From: Chloroflexota bacterium
Lineage (GTDB): Bacteria > Chloroflexota > UBA11872 > VXOZ01
DNA length: 64,000 nt
Assembly (NCBI GenBank): GCA_965221905.1
Contig: OZ244922.1
Span: 3,382,956 to 3,446,955 of the forward strand
Direction: 5' to 3'
Positions 32,639 to 51,751 of this stretch are shown here, in pieces (positions within the stretch are counted from its first letter, which is position 1; each line of letters opens with the position of its first letter). The position numbers and the translations under genes were made by a program. Under the pieces are notes generated by a model, which was not told the DNA's origin, did no database searches, and saw only the letters and a program-made list of their open reading frames with translations.

Positions 32639-34924
32639 ATGAGTGCCAAGGGCTTTAATCCTATGCGCCGACAGTTCTATTCACTCAAGCTGGCGCACGC
32701 ACTCTTCGTGTCACTGCCAAATTGGATGGCAGCTGGAATAAGTTCTCTGCGCAATGAGACCGTGAAATGGGCCTTCCTTCTGGGAGGCGCGGCATTTCTG
32801 TTGTCATCGCTCTTTGTCTTCCTCGTCGCGCAGCCAACGATCGATGTGGTGGATGGCCCAATCTACCACACGATTGGCTACCACTTGGCGCAAGAATTTC
32901 AGTACAACGGGGGAGCGTATCCTTATCCGCTCTACCCCATCTTTCTCGCGGTCATCTATGCGCTGGGGGGAGCCTACTTCGCCGTCTATCTTGTGCAAGG
33001 ACTGCTTCTTGCTCTAACTGTCGGTCTTAGCTACTGGTTGGCACGTCACCTGGCCGGCCACGGCGCCGGATTGTTTGCTGCGCTGCTTGTAACGCTCGAT
33101 GCGACGTTGTTGGGAAACGTCGGACTGATTGCTACCGAGAATCTGCAAACACCGCTGCTTTTGTTGGCGGTGATTCTTTCTCTTCATTCGTTGGGTCAAG
33201 AGAGGGCACGCTACCACATAGGAGCGGGAGTTCTATGGGGTATAGTGACCCTGGTAAAACCCGCAACGCTTCTCTGGCCGCCTTTACTCTTGCCGGTTTA
33301 CCTTGTCACTAGAGGTCGCCTCGGATGGCGGCCATGGCTCTTACTTGTGCTTGCTTTCATGCTGACTCTTTCGCCTTGGCTGCTGCGGAACCAGCTTGCA
33401 TCGGATGCGACGGAAACGGGCCAATTCTACAATCTCAACAAAGAGGGCTATTCTACCCTGTTAATGCACATTGCTGACGAAGGTGAGGTGAAGTATGACG
33501 CGAATCAGTTGTGGCCAAAGCTACAAGCTATGGTCGAGGAGGCGCGAGCACAAAGTATTGAGCCCGGATCTACGGAGTTTGAACTCTATACACTGCGTCT
33601 ACTTTGGCAACGGATTGGGCATTCACCGAGAGCGTATTTCGGGCATCTATGGAGTAACTTTTCATACTTCTGGACAGAGCCGCCGATAGTTTGGGTAGTT
33701 TCGGTTAACAACCATCGCTTTTTGCATGGGTATCGGCAAACGCCTGGTTACGGCGAACACGCCCGATTACATATGGCTTTAGCGCTAATGGGGCTTCTCT
33801 CAATATTGCTTCTGTACCGACAAAGACCGCGTGCAGCTTTATGTATCACAGCCTTTCTCCTCTACTATGCACTCTTTTACACCATGTACATAGTGGAGCC
33901 TCGTTTCAGTGTGCCCGTAATGCCACTGACGCTCGTTTGCGCGGCAGTGTGTCCCACATTGGCGGTCAATGCCCTCAAGGAAAGATTTGAAGGTCTTCGA
34001 GTACTTGGCAACGTGTGCTTGGCAGCGATCGCCGTGGGGCTTGTGACCGGCGTGGCAGTCCATCAGATTCTGCAAAGACCGAACTATATTCAGGGGGACT
34101 CTTTTGAGACACCCCAAGCGGAGGAGGAATGGGTGTTTGTGGAACAGCTTGGTGAACCCAGAGCCCCGCTGGTAGTGGATCCTTATCACGCGCGTGATGG
34201 CTTTCAGTCTGCCGTGTTGCACATTGGTCCAAATGAGCGTGGTGCCGAGACACGGTTCTTTCAAGAGGCAATCGTTTGGTTCGATACGAATTATCGGCTT
34301 AAGTTTTCCTATCTCGTTACTGAGGGTAAACCGCAGTTTTACGTCCTGGTGCTGGAATGGGACGCTTTCAAGGAGGGATGGAAGGAGGTGGGGAAGGAAT
34401 TTCTACCAGTGGTATCGAACATATGGTCGGAGTATGAGTACGAATTCGAGGTCAGCGGTTCGGCGCGGATGGTTTCGGTGTTTTTTGGACTATATATCGA
34501 GCCGGGCACGGTATTGATAGATAACGTTAGTCTGGAACTAGCCGAGCCGATCGGCGAGATAGCGCGGCGACAGTATTTATTGACTGATCCGATGACAGTC
34601 AATCGGTTTAACTACTTGCCGTTGGAGATGTGGGTAAATACGCAACCTGAAGAGAATCGGACCTTCCTGCTCAACAATCCAAATGTCTCACAAGAGAACG
34701 GCTGGCGGGGCAGTGATGCGGGACTTGAGAGAGTGCCGTACATTGTAGGCGCGGTAGTGATGGTAGTTTGGGTCTTTGTGTCGATGCTGTTCATTCGACT
34801 GCAGGTGATTAGGTTGATTGTAAATAGGGGGCTGCTGGATTTGGCCAAGATGGGCGTCATAGTTGTGATAGTGGCAGCACAAGCTGCGACATGTTATCTG
34901 CTGCTCTTTAGTCGCCCCCAATAG
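32639..34924 (+). CDS. glycosyltransferase family 39 (ArnT/PMT-like) membrane protein with large C-terminal domain
   Basis: N-terminal TM region with YHTIGYHLAQEF...YPYPLYPIFLAVIYALGG typical of GT39/PMT_2; 761 aa; C-terminal half visibly lower in GC. Confidence 0.55.
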   Translation: MSAKGFNPMRRQFYSLKLAHALFVSLPNWMAAGISSLRNETVKWAFLLGGAAFLLSSLFVFLVAQPTIDVVDGPIYHTIGYHLAQEFQYNGGAYPYPLYPIFLAVIYALGGAYFAVYLVQGLLLALTVGLSYWLARHLAGHGAGLFAALLVTLDATLLGNVGLIATENLQTPLLLLAVILSLHSLGQERARYHIGAGVLWGIVTLVKPATLLWPPLLLPVYLVTRGRLGWRPWLLLVLAFMLTLSPWLLRNQLASDATETGQFYNLNKEGYSTLLMHIADEGEVKYDANQLWPKLQAMVEEARAQSIEPGSTEFELYTLRLLWQRIGHSPRAYFGHLWSNFSYFWTEPPIVWVVSVNNHRFLHGYRQTPGYGEHARLHMALALMGLLSILLLYRQRPRAALCITAFLLYYALFYTMYIVEPRFSVPVMPLTLVCAAVCPTLAVNALKERFEGLRVLGNVCLAAIAVGLVTGVAVHQILQRPNYIQGDSFETPQAEEEWVFVEQLGEPRAPLVVDPYHARDGFQSAVLHIGPNERGAETRFFQEAIVWFDTNYRLKFSYLVTEGKPQFYVLVLEWDAFKEGWKEVGKEFLPVVSNIWSEYEYEFEVSGSARMVSVFFGLYIEPGTVLIDNVSLELAEPIGEIARRQYLLTDPMTVNRFNYLPLEMWVNTQPEENRTFLLNNPNVSQENGWRGSDAGLERVPYIVGAVVMVVWVFVSMLFIRLQVIRLIVNRGLLDLAKMGVIVVIVAAQAATCYLLLFSRPQ

Positions 34925-35163
34925 GCTTCCGAACGAGGGTTGTTTGAGAAGTGTCATTCATGACAGGTGTCTGCTTCCGGAGCTTCCCCTTCAAAATTCG
35001 TCTACTCTCCTAATTGTCCTAGAGTACTGATTCATTCGCTAGCGCATCGATTGTTTCGCCGAGACAACGTTGGACAGGCCTCGGCCCTTCTCCTAGAATG
35101 GCAAGTGGATCAGCAGATTCCCTATTGCTCGTGTGACAGTTGCAGGATTTAAGTAGCGCATCG

Positions 35164-36459
35164 ATGATTCCCCGGTATACCCGCCCCGCAATGGGCACAA
35201 TTTGGTCGGAGGAGCACAAGTTTGCCACCTGGCTCCAGGTAGAGCTTGCCGTGTGTGAAGCGTGGTCGGAGCACGGTAGGGTGCCGGCAGATGACATGGC
35301 GAAGCTACGGAAGGCTCGGCCCCCGTCCATGAAACGCATTGCGGCGATCGAGCGGGAGATCGACCACGACCTGAACGCTTTTCTCATGGCGGTAGCGGAG
35401 CAATTGGGCGACGAGAGCCGGTTTCTCCACCTGGGCTTGACCTCCTACGACGTGGAAGACACGGCGACCGGTATGCGTTTGCGGGACGCCGCCGATCTGC
35501 TGCTGGAAGGTATCGCCGCGCTGACACAAGTGCTGGAAGAAGCAGCGGTTGCCTACAAAGACGTGCCGCAGATAGGGCGCACCCACGGCGTGCAGGCCGA
35601 GCCGATTACGTTTGGCTATAAGCTGCTCGTTTGGGTGGATGAGATGCGCCGCAACCGGCGGCGGCTGGAAGTGGCGCGGGCGCAGGTGGCGGTGGGCAAG
35701 GTTTCCGGCGCGGTGGGCACCCACGCCAACGTGCCGCCGGAGATCGAGGACCGCGTGTGCGCCATGCTCGGCCTGGCGGTTGCGCCCACCTCGACGCAGA
35801 TTATCCAAAGGGACCGCCATGCTGATTTCGTCACCACGCTGGCGGTGATTGCCGCCTCACTTGAGAAGTTTTCCACCGAAATTCGCAACCTGCAGCGCAC
35901 CGAGATCTTGGAGGTGGAAGAACCCTTCGAGCGCGGACGCGTAGGCTCCTCCGCTATGCCGCACAAACGAAACCCCGCCCGCTGCGAGCGTATTTCCGGC
36001 CTGGCGCGCTTGATGCGGTCCTATGCGCTCACGGCGCTGGAGAACGTGGCGCTCTGGCACGAACGGGACATTACCAACTCCGCTCCCGAGCGCGTCATCC
36101 TGCCCGATTCGTGCACTATCCTCGACTATATGCTCGATCTATTCACCCGCGTCATGGCGGATCTCCGCGTGTACCCCGAGAATATGGCAAGGAATATCGA
36201 GCAGACTCGCGGTCTCGTCTTTAGCGAGGCGGTGCTCTTGGCGCTGATCGACCACGGACTCACGCGGCAGAATGCCTACGCCATTGTGCAGGAACACGCC
36301 ACTGCGGCGTGGGAGACGGGCGCGGACTTCGCCGCCCTCCTGAAAGGCGATCCGCGGGTACGCGTGCACCTGGATGAGGCTGAGATCGACGCGCTCTTTG
36401 ACGCGCGCCACCACCTGCGCCACATCGATGCGTCATTTGAGCGCATGGGGTTGTCCTAG
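35164..36459 (+). CDS. purB: adenylosuccinate lyase
   Basis: MIPRYTRPAMGTIWSEEHKFATWLQVELAV (cf. PurB MIERYTRPEM...), fumarate-lyase signature GSSAMPHKRNP; start moved to the ATG at 35164. Confidence 0.93.
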   Translation: MIPRYTRPAMGTIWSEEHKFATWLQVELAVCEAWSEHGRVPADDMAKLRKARPPSMKRIAAIEREIDHDLNAFLMAVAEQLGDESRFLHLGLTSYDVEDTATGMRLRDAADLLLEGIAALTQVLEEAAVAYKDVPQIGRTHGVQAEPITFGYKLLVWVDEMRRNRRRLEVARAQVAVGKVSGAVGTHANVPPEIEDRVCAMLGLAVAPTSTQIIQRDRHADFVTTLAVIAASLEKFSTEIRNLQRTEILEVEEPFERGRVGSSAMPHKRNPARCERISGLARLMRSYALTALENVALWHERDITNSAPERVILPDSCTILDYMLDLFTRVMADLRVYPENMARNIEQTRGLVFSEAVLLALIDHGLTRQNAYAIVQEHATAAWETGADFAALLKGDPRVRVHLDEAEIDALFDARHHLRHIDASFERMGLS

Positions 36460-36514
36460 TAATCGCTGTCGCGCGGGGTAAAGTACTCTGAGTCCGATGC
36501 CGCTTGTCGGCCGC

Positions 36515-36700
36515 GATTGGCGATGGCTTCCCGGCGGGGGACAAGCCTCCGCGCTACGGTCTCAGATACGTCTTTCCCGCGAAAGCAGGAATCCATCTTC
36601 TCTGCGCCACCTACCACCGACCCCGGCGGGGGACAAGCCCCCGCGCTACAGGCTTACTTTGAGTTGAAGTAGCACATCTACCGTTCGTGCTGAGCCTGTC
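36515..36700. repeat. mosaic of REP families C-A-C-D (GGGGACAAGCCCCCGCGCTACGG; TCCCGCGAAAGCAGGAATCCATCTTC; CCGTTCGTGCTGAGCCTGTCGAAG)
   Basis: direct reading of four different repeat modules back-to-back downstream of purB. Confidence 0.8.
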
Positions 36701-36964
36701 GAAGTACGAACGGCATGACGGGCTCAACACGAGCGGCAAAGTAGGCTTGGCACGTACGGCAAGTCAGGCTCAATACGAACGAAAAAAGAACGCGCCAAGA
36801 ACGGTAAAAAGGCTTCAGCACGCACCGCAACTAGCAACCCACCAAGAACTGCATGATGGGTTTGACGCGGACTTCAGAATACGGTGTAAAGCCAACGTCA
36901 AGAAGGGAACGACCCGAATTGCAAAACGGGAATCACACCCTTAATCGGGTCTCCATATCTCGGC

Positions 36965-37759
36965 CTATTCGTCGTGAGGCGCCGGCTCGATGATGGTGCA
37001 ATAGGCCCCTTGCGGATCGCAGATGAATGCGAATTGCCCCACGCCATCCACCGCCATGGCAGGGGAAATCTTTTGCCCGCCGAGGCTTTGCAATTTCTCT
37101 AGTGAAGCGTCCAAGTTGGCAACAGCGAGGTAGATAGACCAATTGGGGGGAATCGGTCCCCATTCCTCCCGAATCGCCATCATGCCCGCAGCCGGTCTAT
37201 CGCCAAGACTAAACAGATTATACTCGCTGCCGTCGCCGCTCTGCGTCTTCTCCACCGACCAGCCGAAGAGGCTCGTGTAGAACTGCGCAGCGGCTGCGGT
37301 GTCGCGAGTATACAGTTCGTTCCACGCCAGCGCGCCCGGCTCGCCAAAGACCTCGGCGCCGATCTGGTTGAGAGGCTGCCACACCGAAAACCCGGCGCCG
37401 GTGGGGTCCTGGGCGACGAGCAGCCGTCCCGCGTCCATGACGTCAACCGGCTCCTGCGCCACCGTGCCGCCCAGCTTCTTGACTGCGGCCGACGTTTCGT
37501 CGGCGCTCTCCACCGTGAAGTAGCTCTGCCACACCGGCCGGCCGCCGGTCATCTGCTTCATCTCTGCCGGCATCGTGTAGAGCGAAAAGACGTTCTTGCC
37601 TCGCTTCCGGAGCATGCAGAAATCCACGCCGTTGGGAAGCGGCATGACGTTTGCTTCTAGGTCCAGAAACGCCGTATAGAATTGCTTGGAGCCTGCAAAA
37701 TCGGGCGTTCCCAAATCCGCCCAACTGAACATGCCGGGTTCATGCTTCGTTACGTCCAT
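36965..37759 (-). CDS. VOC (glyoxalase/bleomycin-resistance/dioxygenase) family protein, two-domain
   Basis: start at MDVTKHEPGMFSWADLGTPD; two repeats of the VOC-like fold (FSWADLGT.., ..LAWNELYT..). Confidence 0.6.
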   Translation of the reverse strand: MDVTKHEPGMFSWADLGTPDFAGSKQFYTAFLDLEANVMPLPNGVDFCMLRKRGKNVFSLYTMPAEMKQMTGGRPVWQSYFTVESADETSAAVKKLGGTVAQEPVDVMDAGRLLVAQDPTGAGFSVWQPLNQIGAEVFGEPGALAWNELYTRDTAAAAQFYTSLFGWSVEKTQSGDGSEYNLFSLGDRPAAGMMAIREEWGPIPPNWSIYLAVANLDASLEKLQSLGGQKISPAMAVDGVGQFAFICDPQGAYCTIIEPAPHDE

Positions 37760-37871
37760 CGTCACCTCGTTTTGGTAGTGCGTGTCACTGTGTGAACTGG
37801 TTAATCCCACACAGTATATAGTAGAACCTGAAGATTGAGACGGGCAACAAGACTGGAGAATTTGGCTCAAT

Positions 37872-38753
37872 ATGGATGACGTAATTCTGGAAACGGCGCT
37901 CCCCATACCCCTGTTCGCGCGCGGGAAAGTGCGCGACATGTACGATCTCGGCGACCGGTTGCTGATCGTCACGACCGATCGCATTTCGGCCTTTGACGTG
38001 GTGCTGCCGTTGGGGATTCCTGAGAAAGGCCGGGTGCTCAATCAACTCTCTGCATTTTGGTTCCAGCGCATGGGACACCTCATCCCAAACCACCTCATCA
38101 CCACAGACGTAGCGGCATACCCGGCTGCACTGCAGGCCGACCGTGAAATGCTGGCGGGGCGCAGCATGCTAGTGCGCAAAGCAGAGCGGATCGATGCCGA
38201 GTGCGTGGTGCGGGGCTATCTCGCGGGTACCGGCTGGCGCGACTACGTACGCACCGGTGAAGTCTGCGGCCACAAACTGCCACCGGGTATGGTGGAGAGC
38301 CAGGAGTTTTCTGAGCCCATCTTTACGCCCGCTGCTAAGGCCGAGACCGGCCACGACGAGAACATTTCGCGCACAGAACTGGCCTCGTGTATCGGCACGG
38401 AGCTCGCGGCACGCCTCGAAGAGGCATCGCTTGCCATCTACAACTTCGGGCGCGCAGAGGCCCGAAAGGCCGGCCTGATCGTGGCTGATACGAAATTCGA
38501 GTTCGGCCTGTGCGGAGACGAGCTAATTCTGATCGACGAGGCATTTACGCCGGATTCGTCGCGCTACTGGGATACTGACATCTACGAGCCCGGTCGTCCC
38601 CAGCCGAGCTACGACAAAGAATTCGTGCGTGAGTGGCTGCGCCAGAGCGGCTGGAACATGGAACCCCCGGCCCCCATGCTACCGGACGAAATCGTGCAGA
38701 AGACGAGCGAGAAATACCAAGAAGCCCTGCGCCGCATCACGGCGATTCCCTAG
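37872..38753 (+). CDS. purC: phosphoribosylaminoimidazole-succinocarboxamide synthase (SAICAR synthetase)
   Basis: GKVRDMYDLGDRLLIVTTDRISAFD, ADTKFEFG, WDTD blocks of PurC. Confidence 0.93.
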   Translation: MDDVILETALPIPLFARGKVRDMYDLGDRLLIVTTDRISAFDVVLPLGIPEKGRVLNQLSAFWFQRMGHLIPNHLITTDVAAYPAALQADREMLAGRSMLVRKAERIDAECVVRGYLAGTGWRDYVRTGEVCGHKLPPGMVESQEFSEPIFTPAAKAETGHDENISRTELASCIGTELAARLEEASLAIYNFGRAEARKAGLIVADTKFEFGLCGDELILIDEAFTPDSSRYWDTDIYEPGRPQPSYDKEFVREWLRQSGWNMEPPAPMLPDEIVQKTSEKYQEALRRITAIP

Positions 38754-38783
38754 AGCAACCAGACATACAATTCTGGTCAATCG

Positions 38784-39239
38784 TTACAGAATGTGTAATC
38801 TGCGCATTGTCCACTTACAAATTGAGTGCCAGACGTATTTCCACAATACCGGTGATGTTGCGTCTTTCACTATGCAAGTGCCCAGGCCAATGACTCCGCC
38901 AAATTCCTCTGCCTTCTTGTAGCGGTCCTGGATTCGTATTCTTGTGATCCGCTCTTCAGACATGGCTGGTGCCCACTCAACCTTATTGCGTTTGATCCAG
39001 TAGTGGGATCGACACGCAATGCTCCAGTTACCAATTGACGGCTGAAGAGAAACGGACTTGCCGTCGAAGGTCATTTGCCAGTCAGTAGGGTCTAGGGGCG
39101 TGACTACTTCGATCCCGCAACCGCAACAACACTTGTGGACTACTGTTGCGAAAGGAATTGACACGTACAGTACACCCTCGACTAGGTCTTCAGGGATGAA
39201 ATGAACGAACTCGTGGAAGAGAGAGTTGATTCGAGTCAC
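38784..39239 (-). CDS. Cys-cluster protein of unknown function (HKCCCGCG), third gene of the Ubl-E2/E1 operon
   Basis: 151 aa; GTG start overlaps the stop of the upstream gene (GTGA); Cys/His candidates VVHKCCCGCG...SIACRSHYW...WHSIC; no HxH JAB motif, no HNH motif; low GC. Confidence 0.55.
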   Translation of the reverse strand: MTRINSLFHEFVHFIPEDLVEGVLYVSIPFATVVHKCCCGCGIEVVTPLDPTDWQMTFDGKSVSLQPSIGNWSIACRSHYWIKRNKVEWAPAMSEERITRIRIQDRYKKAEEFGGVIGLGTCIVKDATSPVLWKYVWHSICKWTMRRLHIL

Positions 39240-40408
39240 GTTTGGTTCTCGTTGATCAGACTGTTACCATCTATCTCGTAATAGCAAGAGTGCTCACTCT
39301 CTAGGTCTGTATAGAATCCCATGAGCTTTTTCCACTTGATCACAGCCAAAGCTGCATTCAAAGCGTTGAGATCGGCAATCTGAATGTTGCGTAAGTATTC
39401 ATTCTCGCCATTTTCATCTGAGAACGGTATGGTCGAGTGAATGTGGCTGCGTTCGTCAACTGTACTTGTTGTAACTCTCAACACGCCAAGCAGTGAACCG
39501 TCTACTTCGTTCACCCCCATCCCTGCATCTATGAATGGCACGCCGAACTCACACAGCTTCTCAACCACGAGTCTCCTGCTAAATCCCCTATCGACCGCTA
39601 GAAAGACAAAATCCATATTGCGAAGCCTATCAATTGTCGATTCTTCAAGGAAGTCATGGGCGAAAATGCGGTTCCGCATCTGAGAATAAACGTTGCAAAA
39701 GTACTCGGCTTTCTGTGGCGCCTTTACCAGGGTCTCCAAAGACGGCGCTCCGGGTGAGCGAAACGCGTTATGCTGCCCAAACCTGTCACCATCGAATAGA
39801 TGGATTTCTTTCACGGGCGTCTTAGCTACTAGGTCAAGAATGTATGAGCCAGTGCCCCCCAGTCCAACAATCGCTACTGCGCCGATGGCAAGTTTATCGG
39901 TCACAGCGACGATGCCAGATCGGCTCGACGCCGTATCAATATACTTAAACACCGAGTCGTCACCTTGAGGCTCGACAATCGAGAAGGTTTGGATCTTCAA
40001 GTTAGGATTGATGGATAGAGCGGGCCCAGAAACGATATGCGCGTAGGTGGTCATCTTCTCGTAATAGTCGTGGTACCCTTCACTTGGCTTGCTTGAAAAC
40101 GTATGGTCAATCACTAGACCACTAGCTAGCTCCCTGCGGGTGCTGGAGTTATGGATCTGCGTTAGTGGACGTCCCTCTTGGTCGCAAGGCATCTCTCCGG
40201 CGAACATCACAACATGAGTACTCGGTCTTGCTGTGACATTGCCTGCTAACGACAATTCTGCAACCAAAGTGCCTCGGGAAATGTTGCGCTCGCTCGTGAC
40301 GTAAGGGATGCCTCTTAATAGAAGATGGCCGGATCGGATCTCAACTTCGTGCCCTTCGCCTTGAAGCCGACTGAGGTCCGGGCTAAGACTTATCAGTGAT
40401 TGTGACAT
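39236..40408 (-). CDS. E2-like N-terminal domain fused to E1-like ThiF/MoeB adenylyltransferase domain (Cap2/BubCD-like architecture)
   Basis: C-terminal half has ThiF motifs VAIVGLGGTGSYILDLVAKTPVKEIHLFDGDRFGQHNAFR (GxGxxG nucleotide loop, D-x-D...N-x-x-R); N-terminal about 170 aa has a single Cys in HVVMFAGEMPCDQEG, compatible with a UBC-like catalytic centre; overlaps the upstream Ubl gene by 26 nt. Confidence 0.65.
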   Translation of the reverse strand: MSQSLISLSPDLSRLQGEGHEVEIRSGHLLLRGIPYVTSERNISRGTLVAELSLAGNVTARPSTHVVMFAGEMPCDQEGRPLTQIHNSSTRRELASGLVIDHTFSSKPSEGYHDYYEKMTTYAHIVSGPALSINPNLKIQTFSIVEPQGDDSVFKYIDTASSRSGIVAVTDKLAIGAVAIVGLGGTGSYILDLVAKTPVKEIHLFDGDRFGQHNAFRSPGAPSLETLVKAPQKAEYFCNVYSQMRNRIFAHDFLEESTIDRLRNMDFVFLAVDRGFSRRLVVEKLCEFGVPFIDAGMGVNEVDGSLLGVLRVTTSTVDERSHIHSTIPFSDENGENEYLRNIQIADLNALNAALAVIKWKKLMGFYTDLESEHSCYYEIDGNSLINENQT

Positions 40409-40637
40409 TAAAGATTGTTCCTTTCTGAATCTTTACCTTTTGGTCAGGAAAGAGCCGCCCATTTGGTGGTCTACCCGCGCCGTCGCGATAGGTGACAGTT
40501 ATCTCGATATACGGACCCGATGGCACTGGATCGTAGGCGAGTAAGACGACGACGTCGAAAGATATTTCATCAGAATTGACTACCTTCTTGCGGCCGTTCA
40601 CGATAATCTGTACTTTTTCCTTTTCGTCAATCATCAT
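40383..40637 (-). CDS. small beta-grasp (ubiquitin-like / multiubiquitin-type) protein, no C-terminal Gly
   Basis: 84 aa, no Cys, alternating beta-strand-like segments (KVQIIVNGRKKVV, FDVVVLLAY, YIEITVTY, KVKIQKGTIFNVTI); AAGGAG RBS 6-7 nt upstream; ends ...TITDKS. Confidence 0.5.
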   Translation of the reverse strand: MMIDEKEKVQIIVNGRKKVVNSDEISFDVVVLLAYDPVPSGPYIEITVTYRDGAGRPPNGRLFPDQKVKIQKGTIFNVTITDKS

Positions 40638-40645
40638 TAGACTCC

Positions 40646-40754
40646 TTGCAATGTTGCAAAAACAATTATCAGTACCATATGTGGTACACTTTCAATCTAC
40701 ACTGTGCGTACTGCCCGTGTCAACCCAAAATGGTACTTGTACCGTTTTAAGTAC
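40646..40754. promoter_or_regulatory. divergent promoter/operator region with GTAC-core palindromes
   Basis: TTGCAATGTTGCAA (40646-40659); perfect 16-bp palindrome GTACCATATGTGGTAC (40672-40687); AAAATGGTACTTGTACCGTTTT (40727-40748, one mismatch); lies between the divergent Ubl operon and the XRE gene. Confidence 0.55.
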
Positions 40755-40764
40755 AGGAGGTTTT

Positions 40765-41235
40765 ATGGCTGCAGGTAAGATAGAGCTTGGTGACCTAGGC
40801 CGTCTTGTCGCGGCTGAGCGGGATCGACGCGGCCTAAGTCTTCGCGAAGCGGCAAGTGCGATTGGAATTCCCTTCAACACCCTGGCGCGAGTGGAAAAGG
40901 GACACGTGCCTGACCTTCCAAAGTTCAAGAGGCTCGTGGAGTGGTGTGGTGCCGATATAAACCAGTTCTTTGAATGGCAGGAGAAAGCTGCGTCGACAAC
41001 AGACATTATCGCTGAACACCTTCGATCTGATCCAAGTCTGCCTGCTGCCGCTGCTGACCAAATCTCAAGAATCGTTAACGAACTCTATCAAGCTCTAGCA
41101 GTTCCGCAAGAGTTTTCTGCAGCGCATCTACGGGCAGCAACCACTTTCAAGCCAGAAGCGGCGCGCGCGCTCGGGACACTCTTACAGGACTTGAATGAAG
41201 CGCTTCTGAAGGAAACTGAACATGGCTCTGCGTAG
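40765..41235 (+). CDS. XRE-family helix-turn-helix transcriptional regulator (CapH-like)
   Basis: AGGAGG RBS 7 nt upstream of the ATG; HTH LSLREAASAIGIPFNTLARVEKGH; 156 aa with C-terminal helical domain. Confidence 0.75.
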   Translation: MAAGKIELGDLGRLVAAERDRRGLSLREAASAIGIPFNTLARVEKGHVPDLPKFKRLVEWCGADINQFFEWQEKAASTTDIIAEHLRSDPSLPAAAADQISRIVNELYQALAVPQEFSAAHLRAATTFKPEAARALGTLLQDLNEALLKETEHGSA

Positions 41236-41776
41236 AGGGTTTAAGTCTGAGGCGGAGAGAATTGCGGAGGGCATCCGAAGAGAACTCGGACTGAGTTCCG
41301 CTGAATCGGTTTCGCCCGATGCAATTGCCGAACTTCAGGGTGTACAAATCGTGGCAGGCGACGAATTGATCCCCCGTCAACGATTTGTTGAGCTTGAAAA
41401 TATACAAACAGGAGCCTTTTCAGCATGCACATTACGACCTTCTCCCGATCGCGTTGTCATTGTGTTCAACCCTCTATCAGCCGAGTCCCGCCGCAAAAGC
41501 GATCTAGCCCATGAACTTGCACACCTACTCCTCAACCACAAGTTGAGTCGGATTGAGAGGCTCGGTGAGATTTCCTTTCTAACATGCGATTCGGTTCAAG
41601 AGGCGGAGGCTTCCTGGCTATCAGGCTGCTTACTGCTACCTCGAGCGTTGCTATTGTCGGAGGTCCGCAGGGGTTTGAGTTCTGTTGAAATTGCCGAGAA
41701 ATGTGGTGTGAGTGAACAGATGGTGCGTTACAGAACTAATGTTACTGGTGTGCTAAGGCAGAGCCAGGCCCGCTGA
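41222..41776 (+). CDS. ImmA/IrrE family zinc metallopeptidase (CapP-like)
   Basis: HEXXH motif in DLAHELAHLLLNH typical of DUF955/ImmA; overlaps the XRE gene by 14 nt. Confidence 0.75.
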   Translation: MALRRGFKSEAERIAEGIRRELGLSSAESVSPDAIAELQGVQIVAGDELIPRQRFVELENIQTGAFSACTLRPSPDRVVIVFNPLSAESRRKSDLAHELAHLLLNHKLSRIERLGEISFLTCDSVQEAEASWLSGCLLLPRALLLSEVRRGLSSVEIAEKCGVSEQMVRYRTNVTGVLRQSQAR

Positions 41777-42168
41777 AAGTTGAGGCGCGCCACGGTTTAA
41801 TGTAAGTGGCTTCGGCTAAAGCATGCGTTGTACCGTGAAAGTCAACGACTATTCTTGATCCTAGATTCTGGTTGGCTGGTCAATAAAGGGGGAGCTAATT
41901 CCTATGACAGGCTTCTGTGTACGCCGCCAGGGTGGGTTCGGCGATGCGGAGCCATGAGAAGCCGCGGGCGAAGCGTAGGGCGTCGCCGTAAGCCCACCTA
42001 TGGATTAGATGGTCACGTTACCCCATTCTTGAAATCGCATCCCGCGCTCCGTTATAGTGAAGTATGGAAGAAAACGTGATCTTCCTCAAATACATTTTCT
42101 CAATTGCGTGCCAAGCGCCGGTCATAGCAGCTTGTCCGAGTAACACGTAGCGGACAGGGTTAGTATTT

Positions 42169-42329
42169 GGTGACTAGCACATGCTGTTTCAGTGAATCGA
42201 TATTTTCGTGAAACAGCGCCTGTGTGAAACAGCATCTGCGTTTCAGCGAGATAGCATCTTCGTTTCAAGGAAACGGCGACTTTGTTTCAGGGAAACAGCA
42301 TCTTCGTGAAACGGCATCTGCTAGTCACT
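42169..42329. repeat. array of 4 consecutive GUUUC/GAAAC-stem hairpins flanked by 10-bp inverted repeat GTGACTAGCA / TGCTAGTCAC, in the pnp 5' region
   Basis: nine GTTTC/GAAAC pentamers in 140 bp, arranged as GCTGTTTCA..TGAAACAGC, TGAAAC..GTTTCA, CGTTTC AAG GAAACG, TGTTTC AGGG AAACA. Confidence 0.6.
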
Positions 42330-42378
42330 AACCACACGGCGGGCCGGGTGTGGGGCACGGGAAGGATTTTTCCGTCGT

Positions 42379-44721
42379 ATGATTCACAAGGTAGAGGCAG
42401 ACCATGCCGGTCGTGCGTATAGCATCGAGACCGGGCGGTTTGCCGAGCAGGCCAGTGGTGCGGTAACGATCCGTTGCGGCGACGCGATACTTCTGGTCAC
42501 GGTCACGGGCTCTAAGCCTCGCGAGGGGATCGATTTCTTTCCTCTTTCCGTTGACGTGGAAGAGAAGTACTACGCCGTAGGCAGGATTCCCGGTGGGTAT
42601 TTGCGGCGCGAGGGCAGGCCGAGCGACGATTGCGTGCTGGCGGCGCGGCTTTGCGACCGCCCGTTGCGTCCGCTCTTCCCCAAGGACTATCGTAATGAAG
42701 TCCAGGTTATCATCACCATTCTCAGCGCCGACCAAGAGAATTCCACCGACGTGATGGGCATTGTTGGGGCATCGGCGGCGCTCTGCATCTCGGATATCCC
42801 CTTTGGCGGACCGATTGGCGCGGTGCGCGTGGGGCGCATCAACGGTGAGTTCGTCATCAATCCGCTCATGTCGCAATTCGCGGAGAGCGATCTTGATTTG
42901 GTCATCGTGGGCACCCGCGACGCCGTGATGATGGTGGAAGCCGAGGCAGGCCAGCTACCCGAGACGGAGATGGTCGCCGCGCTGGAGCGCGGTCACGAGG
43001 CCTTGCAGGAGACCATCGCCATGCAGGAAGAGCTCATCAGCAAGGTGAGCAAAGCGAAGCATGAATACGTCCCCCACGGCCCGTCGGACGATCTCGTCGC
43101 GCAGGTTCACGAGCGCGTCGCAGAGCCCTTGGCCGCGGCATTTGGGGCACCGGATAAGGCCGCGCGCGAGGCGCAATTGGCCGAGATTACGGCAAAAACC
43201 GTGGAAGATCTCGGCGAACAGTTTGACGAATCGCACGTAAAAGACGCCGTGCAGTCCGCCGTCAAAGCGCATGTGCGAAACGAAATCTTGCATGAGAACA
43301 AGCGGCCCGATGGACGCGGAAAAGCGGAAATTCGCTCGTTGTCCGCGGAAGTCGGCGTATTGCCGCGCACCCACGGCACCGGTCTCTTCCAGCGCGGACA
43401 GACCCAGGTGCTGAGCATCACCACCCTCGGCTCTGCCGGCGACGCGCAGCCGCTCTACGGACTTGAAATCGCCGACTCTAAGCCGTTTATTCACCACTAC
43501 AACTTTCCGCCCTTCAGCACCGGTGAAACCGGACGGCTGGGGTCGCCCCGCAGGCGGGAGATCGGCCACGGCCGTCTCGCCGAGCGCGCCGTCGCGCAGG
43601 TGCTGCCCACCCGGGAGGAGTTTCCTTACACCATTCGGATAGTCTCCGAAGTGCTCTCTTCTAACGGCTCCACCAGCATGGCATCGGCCTGTGGGAGTTC
43701 GCTGGCGCTCATGGATGCCGGCGTACCGATCAAAGCGCCGGTGGGCGGTATTGCGATGGGTTTGGTGATGGGCGATGAAGGCGAGTACGCGATACTCACC
43801 GACATTCAGGGCATCGAGGACGCCCTGGGCGATATGGACTTCAAGGTGGCGGGCACCACGAAGGGCATCACCGCGTTGCAGATGGATATCAAGGTCAAGG
43901 GAATTACGTTCTCCATCATGGAACAGGCGCTCGCACAGGCGCGCGACGCCCGCATGGCAGTGCTGGACGTGATGGTAGACGCGATTGCCGAGCCTCGTAC
44001 CGAGCTATCCGACTTTGCGCCGCGGCTTGTTTCCGTCAAGATCAATCCGGAAAAGATTGGCGAGGTAATCGGCCCCGGCGGCAAGATAATCCGCAAGATT
44101 CAGGAAGAAACTGAATCGAAGATTGATATCTCCGATGACGGCACCATCGTCATAACCGGCGAGTCCAAGGATGGTGTCGAAAAGGCTGCAGAGACTATTC
44201 GCGCTATGACGACGGAACTCGAGGTCGGCGCGATCTTTACCGGCACAGTATCCCGCATTATGAATGCCGGCGTATTCGTGAACCTGCCGGATGGACGGCG
44301 TGAGGGCCTGGTGCGCATGGGCGAACTGGCGGAAGACTACGTCGAACGCGCCGAAGACGTTGCGGATGTGGGCGATGAGGTCATGGTCATGGTCATCGAG
44401 ATCGACTACCAAGGCCGTGTGAACCTCTCTCGACGCGCGGTTTTGGAGGGATCGAGTCCTGCCGATCGAGCCGGATCGGGACGCGGCGAGCGCAGCGAGC
44501 GCGGCGGTTACAACCGCGGACGCGGTCCTTCATCGGATCGTCGCAGCGGCCCGCCTCGGGGCGGCCGGGGACCTCGGCGTGACGACCGCGACCGCGCGCC
44601 TGTGGCGTCCGACCGCGCGCCCGCGGCGACCGAAACAGACGGCGACCGGAGCAGCCAGCCCGATTCGTCGCAAGATGATAGTCAAGGTAAGACGCCTGAA
44701 AGCTCTGGCAGAAAGTGGTAA
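42379..44721 (+). CDS. pnp: polyribonucleotide nucleotidyltransferase (PNPase) with extended Arg/Gly/Asp-rich C-terminal tail
   Basis: N-terminal RNase PH blocks (FFPLSVDVEEKYYAVGRIPGGYLRREGRPSD; LRPLFP), KH GPGGKIIRKI, S1 domain, then about 90 aa low-complexity RG/RD-rich tail. Confidence 0.95.
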   Translation: MIHKVEADHAGRAYSIETGRFAEQASGAVTIRCGDAILLVTVTGSKPREGIDFFPLSVDVEEKYYAVGRIPGGYLRREGRPSDDCVLAARLCDRPLRPLFPKDYRNEVQVIITILSADQENSTDVMGIVGASAALCISDIPFGGPIGAVRVGRINGEFVINPLMSQFAESDLDLVIVGTRDAVMMVEAEAGQLPETEMVAALERGHEALQETIAMQEELISKVSKAKHEYVPHGPSDDLVAQVHERVAEPLAAAFGAPDKAAREAQLAEITAKTVEDLGEQFDESHVKDAVQSAVKAHVRNEILHENKRPDGRGKAEIRSLSAEVGVLPRTHGTGLFQRGQTQVLSITTLGSAGDAQPLYGLEIADSKPFIHHYNFPPFSTGETGRLGSPRRREIGHGRLAERAVAQVLPTREEFPYTIRIVSEVLSSNGSTSMASACGSSLALMDAGVPIKAPVGGIAMGLVMGDEGEYAILTDIQGIEDALGDMDFKVAGTTKGITALQMDIKVKGITFSIMEQALAQARDARMAVLDVMVDAIAEPRTELSDFAPRLVSVKINPEKIGEVIGPGGKIIRKIQEETESKIDISDDGTIVITGESKDGVEKAAETIRAMTTELEVGAIFTGTVSRIMNAGVFVNLPDGRREGLVRMGELAEDYVERAEDVADVGDEVMVMVIEIDYQGRVNLSRRAVLEGSSPADRAGSGRGERSERGGYNRGRGPSSDRRSGPPRGGRGPRRDDRDRAPVASDRAPAATETDGDRSSQPDSSQDDSQGKTPESSGRKW

Positions 44722-44727
44722 GGAGCC

Positions 44728-45540
44728 ATGGCAGCAACGCGGGCAGAACCCCTCCGTGTCGCAGTGTGCGGCATCTTCGGGCGCGTGGGCACGACAGTCG
44801 CAAACGCAGTAGCGCGTGAGGATGACCTCACGCTCGTCGGCGGCGCTGACATTATCGCCTCAAGCGACGGCTTTGCCGCGGCTACCGGCCAATCGGTAGT
44901 CACTGAGACCGATTTGCCGACGTTGCTGGCAGATACGAAGCCTGAGGTCCTGATTGACTTTACTCGTGCCGATGCCGCCCGGGTGAACGTGCGCACTGCA
45001 CTTGAAAACGGGGTGCATGCCGTGGTTGGCACGACGGGGATGGAATTGGCGGAGATCGAAGCGCTGGGAGCGGTTGCGGCGCGCCACGACGTCGGTCTAG
45101 TCGTGGCGCCGAACTTTGCGCTCAGCGCGGTACTCATGGTCCATGTAAGCAAAATTGTCGGTAAGTACATGGACTACTGCGATATCGTAGAGTATCACCA
45201 CGAGCGCAAGATCGATGCCCCTTCCGGCACCGCGTTGCAAAGCGCCCTCGACATTCGGGAGGCGCGGGGCAGCGACTTCATCTCCGTCCCCACGGAGAAG
45301 GAGACGCTCGTCGGCACCCGCGGCGGCGTGCATGGGGGTATCAACGTCCATGCCGTGCGGCTGCCGGGGATGGTGGCCCATCAGCAGATTGTGTTTGGTG
45401 GTTTGGGGCAAACCCTCACCATCCGCCAGGACTCCACTAGCACGGAATCCTTCATACCCGGCGTGCTCATGGCCGCGCGCGCAGTACCGGAGCTCAAAGG
45501 CCTCACCCACGGCCTGGACGCCCTGCTCGGCCTGAATTAG
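44728..45540 (+). CDS. dapB: 4-hydroxy-tetrahydrodipicolinate reductase
   Basis: LRVAVCGIFGRVG N-terminus and DapB signature EIVEYHHERKIDAPSGTAL; 7 nt after pnp. Confidence 0.9.
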   Translation: MAATRAEPLRVAVCGIFGRVGTTVANAVAREDDLTLVGGADIIASSDGFAAATGQSVVTETDLPTLLADTKPEVLIDFTRADAARVNVRTALENGVHAVVGTTGMELAEIEALGAVAARHDVGLVVAPNFALSAVLMVHVSKIVGKYMDYCDIVEYHHERKIDAPSGTALQSALDIREARGSDFISVPTEKETLVGTRGGVHGGINVHAVRLPGMVAHQQIVFGGLGQTLTIRQDSTSTESFIPGVLMAARAVPELKGLTHGLDALLGLN

Positions 45541-45565
45541 ACGCACAGTAAGTTTGGGCGAACTG

Positions 45566-45602
45566 GTAGCACAGGTTGCAAACCTGTGCTACTTTGTTAT
45601 TG
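45566..45602 (+). terminator. Rho-independent terminator after dapB (REP family B hairpin)
   Basis: GTAGCACAGGTT-GCAA-AACCTGTGCTAC (12-bp stem, GNRA loop) followed by TTTGTTATTG; other family-B copies (12836-12863, 57987-58010, 58161-58186) lack the T-run. Confidence 0.6.
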
Positions 45603-45751
45603 ACAGCGTGTTCTGACATGGGGGTGCTTGGCTTCAATCGCTGCATTCGCTGATAAGACCAACAGCGGAGGGGGCACACGGCCCTCCGAAGCGAAGTATC
45701 TTTCTGGGATAAACGCCTTGCGTACAGTAGGGATTGTAGAGGAGCACACAC

Positions 45752-46363
45752 GTGGCGACGCTTGTAGAACCGCCCGTCGGACAAATCGCATTACGTCCCT
45801 TTAGTCTTGAAGACTACCACTGGCTGATTGAACATGGATTCTTCCATGAAGATGAGCGCGTGGAGCTTATCCAAGGAGTCCTGCATCAAATGAGTCCTAA
45901 AGGTCTGCGCCACGCTGCCTGTCTTACGCGCGGCCTACGCATCTTCAATGCCGCCTTAAGCGATCGTGCTTGTATGAGAGCGCAGGACCCTATCACTCTG
46001 CCAGGCAGCAACTCAGAACCGGAACCCGATCTTGTTGTGGCCCAGTGGCGGGAAGATGATTATGCCACCCATCATCCGCTCCCGGAAGACGTGCTCCTTG
46101 TGATTGAAATTGCTGATTCAAGTTTGGATTATGACCGGCGCGTCAAAGTTCCTCTTTATGCGGCTTCAGGAATTTCCGAATTCTGGCTGGTAAACTTGCA
46201 AGAAGACAAGATAGAGGTGTATCGAGAGCCAACCAGTCCGGCCGTAGGTACGCCATACTATCGCCAGCACCAGATTACTTCCGTACAAGACACTGTTACT
46301 CCCACTCGTTTCCCCGATTGCGCTATTTCGGTGGAGGGCCTGCTCCCCCCGAAGCGTGACTAG
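45752..46363 (+). CDS. Uma2-family (DUF820) putative restriction-endonuclease-like protein
   Basis: EPDLVVAQW...VLLVIEIADSSLDYDRRVKVPLYAASGISEFWLVNLQEDKIEVY (PD-(D/E)xK-like Uma2 core). Confidence 0.8.
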   Translation: MATLVEPPVGQIALRPFSLEDYHWLIEHGFFHEDERVELIQGVLHQMSPKGLRHAACLTRGLRIFNAALSDRACMRAQDPITLPGSNSEPEPDLVVAQWREDDYATHHPLPEDVLLVIEIADSSLDYDRRVKVPLYAASGISEFWLVNLQEDKIEVYREPTSPAVGTPYYRQHQITSVQDTVTPTRFPDCAISVEGLLPPKRD

Positions 46364-46603
46364 CATCGCGCCCCTACCACTTGTTCTGCACTTCGTTTGC
46401 CGCAACAGGTAGCGGTATCGGACACATGGCAGTTGCTCCGGCCGGCAAAGTGCTCCCACGCCTAACGCAGCGTTTCAAGACTGCAATACCGCCCTCCATA
46501 ACCGCGCTTGATGGCCCGTAAGCCAATGGTCTTGGTATGATGGTGAGAGTACTCTCTAATTGAGCAGTCACGAGCAACGGCTAGTAAGACGTAGGACAAA
46601 GGC

Positions 46604-47671
46604 ATGGCAAATAGCGGCGGTTACAACGTAGGTGTTCTCGGCGCCACCGGCATGGTGGGGCGTCTCCTTCTCGATATCCTTGTAGAGCGGGCATTCCCAT
46701 TGAAGGACCTGCGCCTCTTCGCTTCAGCAAACTCGCAGGGAAAGAAAATACAGTTTGGCGGCCAGTCGTATACCGTTGAGGAGACGACGGAGGATTCGTT
46801 CGAGGGCTTGGACATTCTCTTTGCCTCCGCCGCCACCGGTGCCAACCGCCACTTCTCGCCAATCGCCGCCCGCGCGGGCGCCACGGTTGTGGATGACTCT
46901 GCGGCATTCCGCATGGATCCTGACGTGCCTTTGGTCATCGCGGGCGTAAACGACGACGATTTACTTCAGCACAATGGCATCATCGCCGGGCCGAATTGCT
47001 CCACGATACAGCTCGTGCTGGCGATCAATCCCATTCATCAGGTCAATCCCATCTGCCGCATGGTGGTTGATACCTACCAAGCGGTATCCGGCTGGGGGCG
47101 AGACGCCATGGTGGAGTTGGACGACCAGATCAAGGCCAAGGCTGCCGGCAATCATGATGAGCTCCCGCGGCAAATCTTCCGCCACGAGATTCTGGGCAAT
47201 GTGCTGCCGGAAGTCGATTCGTTCCTCGAGGATGGGTACACCAAAGAGGAATGGAAAGTCATCCACGAGACTCGCAAGATCATGCACGCGCCGGAGATGA
47301 TGATTACGTGCACTGCGGTGCGGGTTCCCGTGGCCGTCGGCCACTCCGAGGCCGTGCATATGGAGCTCACCCGACCCATGACCGCCGACGCTGTCCGCGA
47401 GGTGCTCGCAGGCGCGCCGGACGTGCGCGTGGTGGATGATCCCAGCCGGGGGCTCTACCCGGTTGCCACCGACGCGGCCGGCACGGACGACGTGCTGATC
47501 GGCCGCATCCGCAACGACGTCTCCCACGAGAACGGTATCGCCCTGTGGGTGGTGGCCGATAACTTGCGCTGCGGCGCGGCTACAAATGCGGTGCGTATTG
47601 CCGAGATGCTGATCGAGCGCGACCTGCTGCACGGCTCGGCTGCAACGGCGGCAAGCAGAAGTAGCGATTGA
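46604..47671 (+). CDS. asd: aspartate-semialdehyde dehydrogenase
   Basis: VGVLGATGMVGR, active-site NCSTIQLV, HSEAVHMEL blocks. Confidence 0.92.
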   Translation: MANSGGYNVGVLGATGMVGRLLLDILVERAFPLKDLRLFASANSQGKKIQFGGQSYTVEETTEDSFEGLDILFASAATGANRHFSPIAARAGATVVDDSAAFRMDPDVPLVIAGVNDDDLLQHNGIIAGPNCSTIQLVLAINPIHQVNPICRMVVDTYQAVSGWGRDAMVELDDQIKAKAAGNHDELPRQIFRHEILGNVLPEVDSFLEDGYTKEEWKVIHETRKIMHAPEMMITCTAVRVPVAVGHSEAVHMELTRPMTADAVREVLAGAPDVRVVDDPSRGLYPVATDAAGTDDVLIGRIRNDVSHENGIALWVVADNLRCGAATNAVRIAEMLIERDLLHGSAATAASRSSD

Positions 47672-49526: not shown

Positions 49527-49539
49527 GCGAAACGCCTGC

Positions 49540-50325: not shown

Positions 50326-50327
50326 TG

Positions 50328-51745: not shown

Positions 51746-51751
51746 GGGTCA

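What the first reader, a model, noticed from the sequence alone, without database searches (positions are those of the whole stretch)
38754..41776. Low-GC islet between purC and pnp: Ubl - E2/E1 fusion - Cys-cluster operon under a CapH/CapP-like (XRE + ImmA) regulator pair
The minus-strand trio (40637 to 38784) is tightly overlapping: an 84-aa beta-grasp-like protein, a 390-aa E2-like/ThiF-E1 fusion and a 151-aa Cys-cluster protein. The GC drop starts immediately after the purC stop codon and ends before pnp, housekeeping genes that would not normally be separated like this. The regulator pair is arranged as in CBASS CapH/CapP, which responds to DNA damage. An E2-E1 fusion with a small Ubl recalls Cap2 and type II Bub/Bil ubiquitination-like antiviral operons. 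Here there is no CD-NTase, no JAB/DUB peptidase and no recognisable effector. The third gene (HKCCCGCG motif) matches no family I can name. This looks like a compact, possibly undescribed ubiquitin-like conjugation/defence module.
Basis: partly seen in the sequence, partly recalled or inferred. Interest (0 to 1): 0.9.

Follow-up and report, generated by a model that had tools for sequence, protein, structure and literature searches.

The report
Known Type II Bub ubiquitin-like operon
The low-GC islet between purC and pnp is a real, horizontally acquired five-gene cassette, but it is an ordinary member of the already described "Type II Bub" (formerly 6E.2/DUF6527) bacterial ubiquitin-like conjugation operons with a repressor/protease regulator pair, not an undescribed system.

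Summary
Three overlapping minus-strand genes and a divergent HTH/metallopeptidase pair sit in a 3.27-kb low-GC block, window 38751-42021. That block is absent from two close relatives, where purC directly abuts pnp.

The claim that it is undescribed does not hold. The three genes match Pfam Multi_ubiq, DUF6791+ThiF and DUF6527. This is the published Type II Bub operon (6E.2): BubA (Ubl), BubBD (E2-E1 fusion) and BubE.

Every published catalytic feature that I could test is present:
- an invariant E2 Ser105 with His65 and Lys107
- adenylation Arg217
- crossover-loop Tyr338
- no conserved Cys
- a BubE Ser68/His79 dyad with a C37/C39/C41/C76 zinc site
- a BubA C-terminus (TDKS) identical to crystallised E. 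coli BubA

The family is large, with about 550 clusters at 50% identity and homologues on 127 plasmids.

One modest deviation is the regulator pair. It is CapH/CapP-like in layout but short. The peptidase has no GAF domain and the HTH protein does not match the capH model.

The biological role of Bub, anti-phage or stress response, is still unproven in the literature.

The parts
38751..42021 (.). Inserted low-GC cassette (3271 nt). It replaces 197 nt of purC-pnp spacer present in the relatives.
   Evidence: BLASTN collinearity of the window with L082/L083 breaks exactly at 38750/42022. GC is 0.502 against 0.595 +/- 0.027 elsewhere. No flanking direct or inverted repeats and no integrase or transposase.
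40383..40637 (-). bubA: single beta-grasp ubiquitin-like protein (84 aa, or 83 aa from the second Met). Its C-terminus ...TITDKS is the presumed adenylation/conjugation end.
   Evidence: Pfam Multi_ubiq E 6.6e-13. Aligns end-to-end with beta-grasp 3 of crystallised E. coli ZDHYS365 BubA (PDB 9cd2), and both end in TDKS. TDKS is kept in 20 of 23 aligned sequences; the others end TDNS, TDRS and TDKG.
39236..40408 (-). bubBD: E2-like (residues 1-160, DUF6791) fused to an E1 adenylation domain (residues 165-390). Key residues are S105, H65, K107, R217, D294 and Y338.
38784..39239 (-). bubE: DUF6527 zinc-binding Ser/His peptidase (151 aa) with a C-terminal amphipathic helical extension.
   Evidence: Pfam DUF6527 E 8.5e-26. 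C37/C39/C41/C76, S68 and H79 are invariant, including in a Type I BubE. In the AF2 model the C-terminal residues 95-150 are helical (low confidence, pLDDT 68).
40694..40723 (-). Candidate bubA promoter: -35 TTGACA (40718-40723) and -10 TAGATT (40694-40699).
   Evidence: Consensus scan, 10 of 12 matches. The number of sites in the region is no more than chance, but the TTGACA is invariant in the aligned intergenic regions of four cassettes.
40672..40687 (.). Palindrome GTACCA-TATG-TGGTAC just downstream of the -10. Candidate repressor operator on the bubA promoter.
   Evidence: GTACC-N6-GGTAC is invariant across four cassettes that are otherwise 66-72% identical in DNA.
40738..40755 (.). Palindrome TGTAC-N8-GTACA next to the capH-like RBS. 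Candidate autoregulatory operator.
   Evidence: Conserved in the four-locus alignment. Coordinates.
40765..41235 (+). XRE-family HTH repressor (156 aa), CapH-like in position.
   Evidence: Pfam HTH_31 E 2.6e-8 and HTH_3. Called as 156 aa on L001. No PADLOC capH match.
41222..41776 (+). ImmA/IrrE-type (M78) zinc metallopeptidase (184 aa). HELAH at 97-101, E127/E129, no GAF domain. CapP-like.
   Evidence: Pfam Peptidase_M78 E 1.1e-17. The PADLOC capP match is partial only, profile positions 4-143 of 242, E 1.6e-10. Motif positions.

Best explanation

Inferred mechanism, by homology to the characterised E. coli and Citrobacter systems:
1. The XRE repressor binds the two conserved GTAC-containing palindromes in the 127-nt divergent intergenic region and keeps bubA-bubBD-bubE off.
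2. A stress signal, DNA damage in the characterised CapH/CapP systems, activates the M78 peptidase. The peptidase cleaves the repressor and the operon is transcribed.
3. The E1 half of BubBD (Arg217, Asp294) adenylates the free C-terminal carboxylate of BubA (Ser84 of ...TDKS). No processing peptidase is needed.
4. BubA passes as an oxyester to the crossover-loop Tyr338, then as an oxyester to Ser105 of the E2-like half (assisted by His65 and Lys107), and finally onto a lysine of a still unknown target.
5. BubE (Ser68/His79 dyad, Cys37/39/41/76 zinc site, amphipathic C-terminal tail) cleaves BubA conjugates and so limits or reverses the modification.

Shown here: gene content, family membership, presence of every catalytic residue, the E1 fold, the insertion, and the conserved operator-like palindromes.

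Inferred only: the chemistry, the trigger, the targets and the biological role.
For: Family assignment:
- Pfam Multi_ubiq, DUF6791+ThiF and DUF6527.
- The gene set and order equal the published Type II Bub definition.
- PDB hits to E. coli ZDHYS365 BubA with an identical C-terminal TDKS.
- PDB hits to Citrobacter BubCD by sequence and by fold.

Catalytic residues:
- S105, H65, R217 and Y338 are invariant in 52 diverse homologues; K107 is in 45 of 52; there is no invariant Cys. These match the published S106/R219/Y342 and 'lysine+histidine'.
- BubE invariants have the Citrobacter S92/C99/H102 spacing once a Type I BubE is included in the alignment.

Insertion:
- An empty site in L082 and L083.
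- Extreme GC and GC3 deviation.
- The same five-gene unit sits in unrelated contexts, with homology confined to the five genes.

Regulation:
- Conserved palindromes and a conserved -35.
- The HExxH peptidase gene overlaps the repressor gene.
- A five-gene layout of the same kind, with a full-length CapH+CapP pair, is on an annotated Sinorhizobium plasmid.
- The literature reports regulators next to 31% (CapH+CapP) and 8% (CapW) of Bub operons.
Against: - The UBC/E2 fold of the N-domain could not be shown directly. E1 hits fill the fold-search lists. Profile searches against PDB, a Type I BubAB and UbcH5b were negative. Only the secondary-structure order of the confident model (N-terminal helices, a four-strand meander, the Ser loop, a long helix) and the published assignment support it.
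- The regulator pair is not a strict CapH/CapP. It has no GAF domain and no capH model hit, so the DNA-damage trigger is an extrapolation.
- The promoter call is no better than chance on its own.
- No Bub operon has yet been shown to protect against phage.
- Insertion rather than deletion rests on composition plus two empty-site relatives. The third relative, L002, is rearranged at this junction.
Confidence: 0.9

Rival explanations
1. A genuinely new, undescribed Ubl-conjugation or defence module.
For: PADLOC-DB 2023 has no model for the Ubl or the Cys-cluster protein, and only weak E1-region hits for the fusion. No name is attached to any homologue in the big protein collection.
Against: All three proteins belong to curated Pfam families. 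The operon type is defined and biochemically characterised in Ye et al. 2024. PDB entries exist for BubA and BubCD. A newer Pfam copy names PF20137 'BubE'. Every defining residue is conserved.
Confidence: 0.03
2. A sulfur-carrier or cofactor-biosynthesis pair (ThiF/MoeB with a ThiS/MoaD-like protein) that belongs to the core genome.
Against: The small protein ends in TDKS, not Gly-Gly. The E1 carries a 160-aa N-domain absent from ThiF and MoeB. ThiF/MoeB NCBIfam models score far below their cut-offs, 26 against 275 bits. The block is absent from close relatives and compositionally foreign. A DUF6527 peptidase is always attached.
Confidence: 0.01
3. A degenerate Type II CBASS or Bil remnant: a Cap2-like E2-E1 with CapH/CapP that has lost its cyclase/effector or its JAB peptidase.
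Against: The Cap2 hits cover only the adenylation core, residues about 168-290. No CD-NTase, effector or JAB gene lies in or beside the block. The block borders are clean and the ORFs are intact. The same three-gene set recurs as a complete unit in many genomes and on 127 plasmids. There is no catalytic Cys, unlike Cap2 and BilB/BilD.
Confidence: 0.02
4. The cassette is ancestral at this site and was deleted from the relatives, rather than inserted in this lineage.
For: There are no target-site duplications, terminal repeats or mobility genes. In the relatives a different 197 nt occupies the site, so the event is a replacement, not a clean insertion. L002 is rearranged at this junction.
Against: GC and GC3 are about 3.5 sd below the genome background in all five genes. 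The nearest non-conspecific BubBD is only 74% identical and sits in other contexts. Three relatives lack the cassette.
Confidence: 0.1

Closest known systems
Type II Bub operon (6E.2/DUF6527), e.g. E. coli ZDHYS365 BubA-BubBD-BubE (Ye, Gong, Chambers, Corbett, bioRxiv 10.1101/2024.11.21.623953)
   Same: Same three genes in the same order: a Multi_ubiq Ubl ending in TDKS, an E2-E1 fusion of about 390 aa with the Ser/Tyr/Arg catalytic set and no Cys, and a DUF6527 Ser/His zinc peptidase. No JAB peptidase. A divergent stress-type regulator.
   Different: BubA here has one beta-grasp domain (84 aa); E. coli BubA has three (222 aa). The published survey found a single domain in 40% of Bub Ubls. The host is a Chloroflexota MAG. 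The cassette sits between housekeeping genes rather than in a tRNA-linked mobile element.
Type I Bub operon (6E.1), Citrobacter BubAB-BubCD-BubE (PDB 9ea4, 9ea5, 9eav)
   Different: Type I fuses the Ubl to the E2 and a JAB peptidase to the E1, and it needs processing to expose a C-terminal Gly. Here the E2 is fused to the E1, there is no JAB, and the Ubl is made with its final TDKS end.
CapH/CapP regulators of CBASS (Lau et al., bioRxiv 10.1101/2022.04.27.489752) and ImmR/ImmA, DdrO/IrrE
   Same: A divergently placed XRE HTH repressor gene followed by, and overlapping, an HExxH M78 metallopeptidase gene. Palindromic operator-like sites in the shared intergenic region.
   Different: The peptidase is 184 aa and lacks the C-terminal GAF domain; the PADLOC capP match covers only 4-143 of 242 profile positions. 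The HTH protein (156 aa) does not hit the capH model. A genuine Bub-linked CapP/CapH on a Sinorhizobium plasmid hits both models (E 1.7e-53 and 2.7e-13). In size it is closer to ImmA-type peptidases.
Type II CBASS Cap2 and Bil (BilA-D) ubiquitin-like systems
   Same: Bacterial E1/E2-type conjugation machinery found in accessory genome regions. Cap2 is also an E2-E1 fusion.
   Different: Cap2 and Bil use catalytic cysteines and JAB peptidases. Cap2 conjugates a CD-NTase rather than a Ubl. None of these features is present here.

Membership tests
Type II Bub operon (6E.2) | Separate Ubl gene (BubA) with a Multi_ubiq beta-grasp domain | tested here: met
   Pfam PF14452 E 6.6e-13. Aligns to PDB 9cd2 E. 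coli BubA residues 143-222, E 6e-7.
Type II Bub operon (6E.2) | The Ubl is made with its reactive C-terminus exposed and needs no processing peptidase | tested here: met
   The ORF ends ...TDKS*, identical to the end of E. coli BubA. TDKS is kept in 20 of 23 aligned sequences.
Type II Bub operon (6E.2) | E2-E1 fusion (BubBD): the E1 adenylation domain is of the Bub type | tested here: met
Type II Bub operon (6E.2) | The N-terminal half of BubBD has an E2 (UBC-like) fold | tested here: inconclusive
   Pfam DUF6791 E 5.6e-56. The confident model shows helix, four-strand meander, Ser loop and long helix. No E2 hit could be retrieved because E1 dominates the lists, and sequence profiles find no E2.
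Type II Bub operon (6E.2) | Catalytic Ser in the E2 domain with accompanying Lys and His, and no catalytic Cys | tested here: met
   S105 in 52/52, H65 in 52/52, K107 in 45/52. The only frequent Cys (C75) is in 36/52. Published equivalent is S106.
Type II Bub operon (6E.2) | Invariant Tyr in the E1 crossover loop | tested here: met
   Y338 in 52/52, in a low-pLDDT loop (residues 331-340) between the last core strand and the C-terminal helix. Published equivalent is Y342.
Type II Bub operon (6E.2) | DUF6527 protein (BubE) with a C4 zinc site and a Ser/His dyad | tested here: met
   PF20137 E 8.5e-26. C37/C39/C41/C76, S68 and H79 are invariant, including in a Type I BubE whose S-to-C (+7) and S-to-H (+10) spacing equals Citrobacter S92/C99/H102.
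Type II Bub operon (6E.2) | No JAB/JAMM peptidase. Gene order is bubA-bubBD-bubE on one strand. | tested here: met
   ORF list and Pfam scans. The same order is seen in L084, L086, L087, L088, L089 and L091.
Type II Bub operon (6E.2) | ATP-dependent BubA conjugation through oxyester intermediates, and BubE deconjugation | not testable with these tools
   Biochemistry only. Published for E. coli and Citrobacter.
CapH/CapP regulator pair | XRE HTH repressor gene divergent from the regulated operon and followed by the peptidase gene | tested here: met
   HTH_31/HTH_3. 127-nt divergent intergenic region and a 14-nt overlap with the peptidase gene.
CapH/CapP regulator pair | The HTH protein matches the CapH family model | tested here: not met
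   No PADLOC capH hit at E <= 0.001. The positive control, Sinorhizobium Bub-linked CapH, scores E 2.7e-13.
CapH/CapP regulator pair | HExxH zinc metallopeptidase domain of the IrrE/ImmA (M78) type | tested here: met
   Peptidase_M78 E 1.1e-17. H97-E98-x-x-H101 with E127/E129. Thauera CapP has H96/E97/H100/E129.
CapH/CapP regulator pair | C-terminal GAF domain on the peptidase, as in the three-domain CapP/IrrE architecture | tested here: not met
   The protein ends at residue 184. The capP profile is matched only at positions 4-143 of 242. The control CapP (289 aa) matches 7-242 at E 1.7e-53.
CapH/CapP regulator pair | ssDNA-stimulated cleavage of the repressor | not testable with these tools
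   Biochemistry only.
Type II CBASS (Cap2/Cap3) | CD-NTase, effector, Cap3 JAB peptidase, and a Cap2 with catalytic cysteines | tested here: not met
   None of these genes is in the block. Cap2 models hit only the adenylation core. There is no invariant Cys.
Bil (BilABCD) | Separate E2 and E1 with a catalytic-Cys domain, plus a JAB peptidase | tested here: not met
   The E2 and E1 are fused, and there is no JAB and no conserved Cys.
ThiF/MoeB-ThiS/MoaD sulfur transfer | Carrier protein ending in Gly-Gly, and an E1 reaching the ThiF/MoeB equivalog score | tested here: not met
   The carrier ends in TDKS. TIGR02356 scores 26 bits against a cut-off of 275.

The most novel reading that the evidence does not exclude
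This Chloroflexota-type cassette may be a distinct regulatory subtype of Type II Bub: a minimal unit of about 3.0 kb, with a single-domain Ubl and a short, GAF-less ImmA-like peptidase paired with a long XRE repressor that fails the capH model. Such a unit would sense its trigger differently from the ssDNA-binding CapP. It also appears to move between genomes as a bare five-gene block without any mobility gene. If so, it would be a compact natural system, with isogenic empty-site relatives, for finding out what Bub conjugation is for.
Probability: 0.3. Interest if true: 0.35.

Novelty: new member of a known kind. Interest (0 to 1): 0.18.

Why it matters
The finding adds one more instance, in an uncultured Chloroflexota genome, of a family that is already defined bioinformatically and biochemically, so it does not change what is known. 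It has two modest uses. First, it documents a clean gain of the complete cassette between two housekeeping genes, with empty-site relatives. This shows that the five genes travel as one unit. Second, it shows that Bub operons can be paired with short, GAF-less ImmA-type regulators. The real open question, namely what Bub conjugation targets and whether it defends against phage, is not advanced by this sequence alone.

Tried and rejected
- The E. coli ZDHYS365 BubBD sequence could not be retrieved to map the published residue numbers exactly. The paper's supplements are not held. The correspondence of S105, R217 and Y338 to S106, R219 and Y342 therefore rests on invariance and near-identical numbering.
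- The BubE model has low confidence (pLDDT 68), so it was not used for fold searching.
- A search for terminal repeats or target-site duplications at the block borders found only short matches of the kind expected by chance.
- No tRNA or Rfam family lies near the block.
- No homologue was found in the phage collection.
- The PDB has no sequence relatives of the peptidase, and only marginal ones for the HTH protein.
- An exact look-up of the window's Pnp found no contig on record.


Full report
**1. The observation**

The ORF table confirms the five genes:
- bubE-like, 38784-39239(-), 151 aa
- a 390-aa gene, 39236-40408(-)
- an 84-aa gene, 40383-40637(-)
- an HTH gene ending at 41235(+)
- a peptidase gene, 41222-41776(+)

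The listed HTH ORF starts at 40576. The start at 40765 (156 aa, MAAGKIELG...) has an AGGAGG just upstream and is the start called on a conspecific metagenome contig.

The minus-strand genes overlap by 26 nt and 4 nt. The plus-strand genes overlap by 14 nt.

The composition is clearly deviant. The block is 50.2% GC against 59.5 +/- 2.7% for all other windows of the same length, and it is the lowest in the whole 64 kb. GC3 is 0.48-0.57 in the five genes against 0.73-0.78 in purB, purC, pnp and dapB.

**2. It is an insertion with a known empty site**

The window comes from a Chloroflexota MAG; the closest species representative is OZ244775.1.

Two contigs from a related population, L082 (3.6 Mb) and L083, are collinear with the window at about 92-95% nt identity over 27433-38750 and 42022-52000. 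In both, purC is followed directly by pnp, dapB, an Uma2-family gene and asd. Window 38751-42021 (3271 nt) stands where they have 197 nt.

The left edge cuts the last codons of purC.

There are no flanking repeats, no tRNA, and no integrase or transposase.

A conspecific contig, L001 (97% nt), carries the same block. A more distant relative, L002, lacks it but is rearranged after purC.

The same five-gene unit occurs in three other genomes in unrelated neighbourhoods: next to thyX and MFS transporter genes, next to a DDE transposase, and next to hsdM and IS genes. DNA homology to the window (66-72%) is confined to the five genes.

**3. What the genes are**

Pfam assigns the 84-aa protein to Multi_ubiq, the 390-aa protein to DUF6791 (residues 10-159, E 5.6e-56) plus ThiF, and the 151-aa protein to DUF6527 (E 8.5e-26).

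The only papers in the library that mention DUF6527 are two 2024 preprints from the Corbett laboratory. They rename the '6E/DUF6527' operons as Bub. They define Type II Bub (6E.2) as BubA (Ubl), BubBD (E2-E1 fusion) and BubE (DUF6527), typically without a JAB peptidase. That is exactly this gene set and order.

The family is large:
- at least 7992 BubBD-like proteins in the 90%-clustered collection, nearly all about 390 aa
- 550 clusters at 50% identity with E <= 1e-30
- a long-standing NCBIfam equivalog model matched over its full length
- homologues on 127 plasmids, annotated 'multiubiquitin / ThiF family adenylyltransferase / DUF6527'
- none in the phage collection

**4. Tests of the defining residues**

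[quoted passage not shown] Both proteins end in TDKS. TDKS is kept in 20 of 23 aligned sequences. The absence of a C-terminal Gly is therefore typical of this type and is not a defect. It fits the lack of a processing JAB peptidase. A single beta-grasp domain is reported for 40% of Bub Ubls.

*BubBD.* In an alignment with 51 diverse homologues (40-59% identity), S105 (motif F-S-x-K-P), H65, R217, D294 and Y338 are invariant. K107 is present in 45 of 52. No cysteine is invariant. This matches the published catalytic set for E. coli BubBD (S106, R219, Y342, plus 'lysine+histidine' beside the serine) and the oxyester mechanism.

The E2 fold of the N-domain could not be shown directly. The model has the order expected of a minimal UBC core, but I leave this feature as inconclusive.

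*BubE.* C37/C39/C41/C76, S68 and H79 are invariant, even when a Type I BubE from a Synechocystis plasmid is included. In that protein the Ser-to-Cys (+7) and Ser-to-His (+10) spacing equals Citrobacter S92/C99/H102. Type II proteins have one extra residue in the loop.

The C-terminal third is helical and amphipathic, as described for BubE extensions.

**5. Regulation**

The peptidase has Pfam Peptidase_M78 and an H97-E-x-x-H101 motif with E127/E129. This numbering is close to Thauera CapP, which has H96/E97/H100/E129.

It is, however, only 184 aa. It matches the PADLOC capP profile only over positions 4-143 of 242, so the C-terminal GAF domain of characterised CapP/IrrE is missing. The HTH protein does not match the capH model.

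As a control, a CapP/CapH pair next to a Type II Bub operon on a Sinorhizobium plasmid matches both models strongly (E 1.7e-53 and 2.7e-13).

The pair is therefore CapH/CapP-like in layout and presumably in logic, but it is not a strict member. The three related cassettes have equally short peptidases of 192-193 aa.

The 127-nt divergent intergenic region holds a TTGACA/TAGATT promoter-like pair for bubA. It also holds two GTAC-based palindromes, at 40672-40687 and 40738-40755. These are invariant in four cassettes that are otherwise only 66-72% identical. They are good operator candidates.

**6. Function**

The mechanism given in the best explanation is inferred by homology.

The biological role is open. 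The authors found no phage protection for any Bub operon, and a 2026 paper from the same group still says so. They suggest either immunity or a general stress response. The neighbourhood here is housekeeping genes, not a defence island.

**7. Verdict**

This is a new member of a known kind, with a minor regulatory variation. Interest is low.

Noticed in passing
window 40383-40408: The 26-nt bubA/bubBD overlap encodes both the conserved BubA C-terminus (...VTITDKS*) and the conserved BubBD N-terminus (MSQSLISLS). The same 26-nt overlap is present in L084, L086, L087 and the Adhaeribacter plasmid L088. This suggests translational coupling and a dual coding constraint on the Ubl's reactive end.
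   Followed up: partly
window 32320-35068: A second low-GC stretch (about 0.52) carrying a PMT_2-type glycosyltransferase gene. It is absent from the conspecific contig L001 but present in L082 and L083, so it is another strain-variable indel.
   Followed up: no
window 13820-14782, 36569-36781, 50910-51269: Arrays of a repeat of the 'CCGTTCG(C/T)(C/G)CTGAGC(C/T)TGTCGAAG' type, with periods of about 35, 58 and 217-252 nt. Copy number at 50.9-51.3 kb differs between the window and L082/L083. Copies also occur at several places in L002.
   Followed up: no
window 42150-42340: A series of GAAACAGCATCT/GTTTCA-type short repeats in the leader upstream of pnp, conserved in L082/L083. No Rfam family matches them, and no rpsO gene precedes pnp.
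   Followed up: no
window 41904-41960: 57 nt inside the right end of the inserted block match L002 11827-11883 at 91%. That position is the 3' end of a glycosyltransferase ORF downstream of purC in that relative. The origin of this stretch is unexplained.
   Followed up: no
L084 7170-7577, L087 7170-7586 (also L086): The bubE gene is present and intact but missing from the gene calls stored for these contigs. Context tables from the collection therefore under-report BubE.
   Followed up: yes
L091 (Bradyrhizobium plasmid pBb144S4c) and L088 (Adhaeribacter plasmid): Other Type II Bub operons sit between trbL and a DEAD-box helicase gene on a conjugative plasmid with no adjacent regulator, or next to a WYL (CapW-type) regulator and PDDEXK nucleases. 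This illustrates how the regulators are swapped as modules.
   Followed up: no
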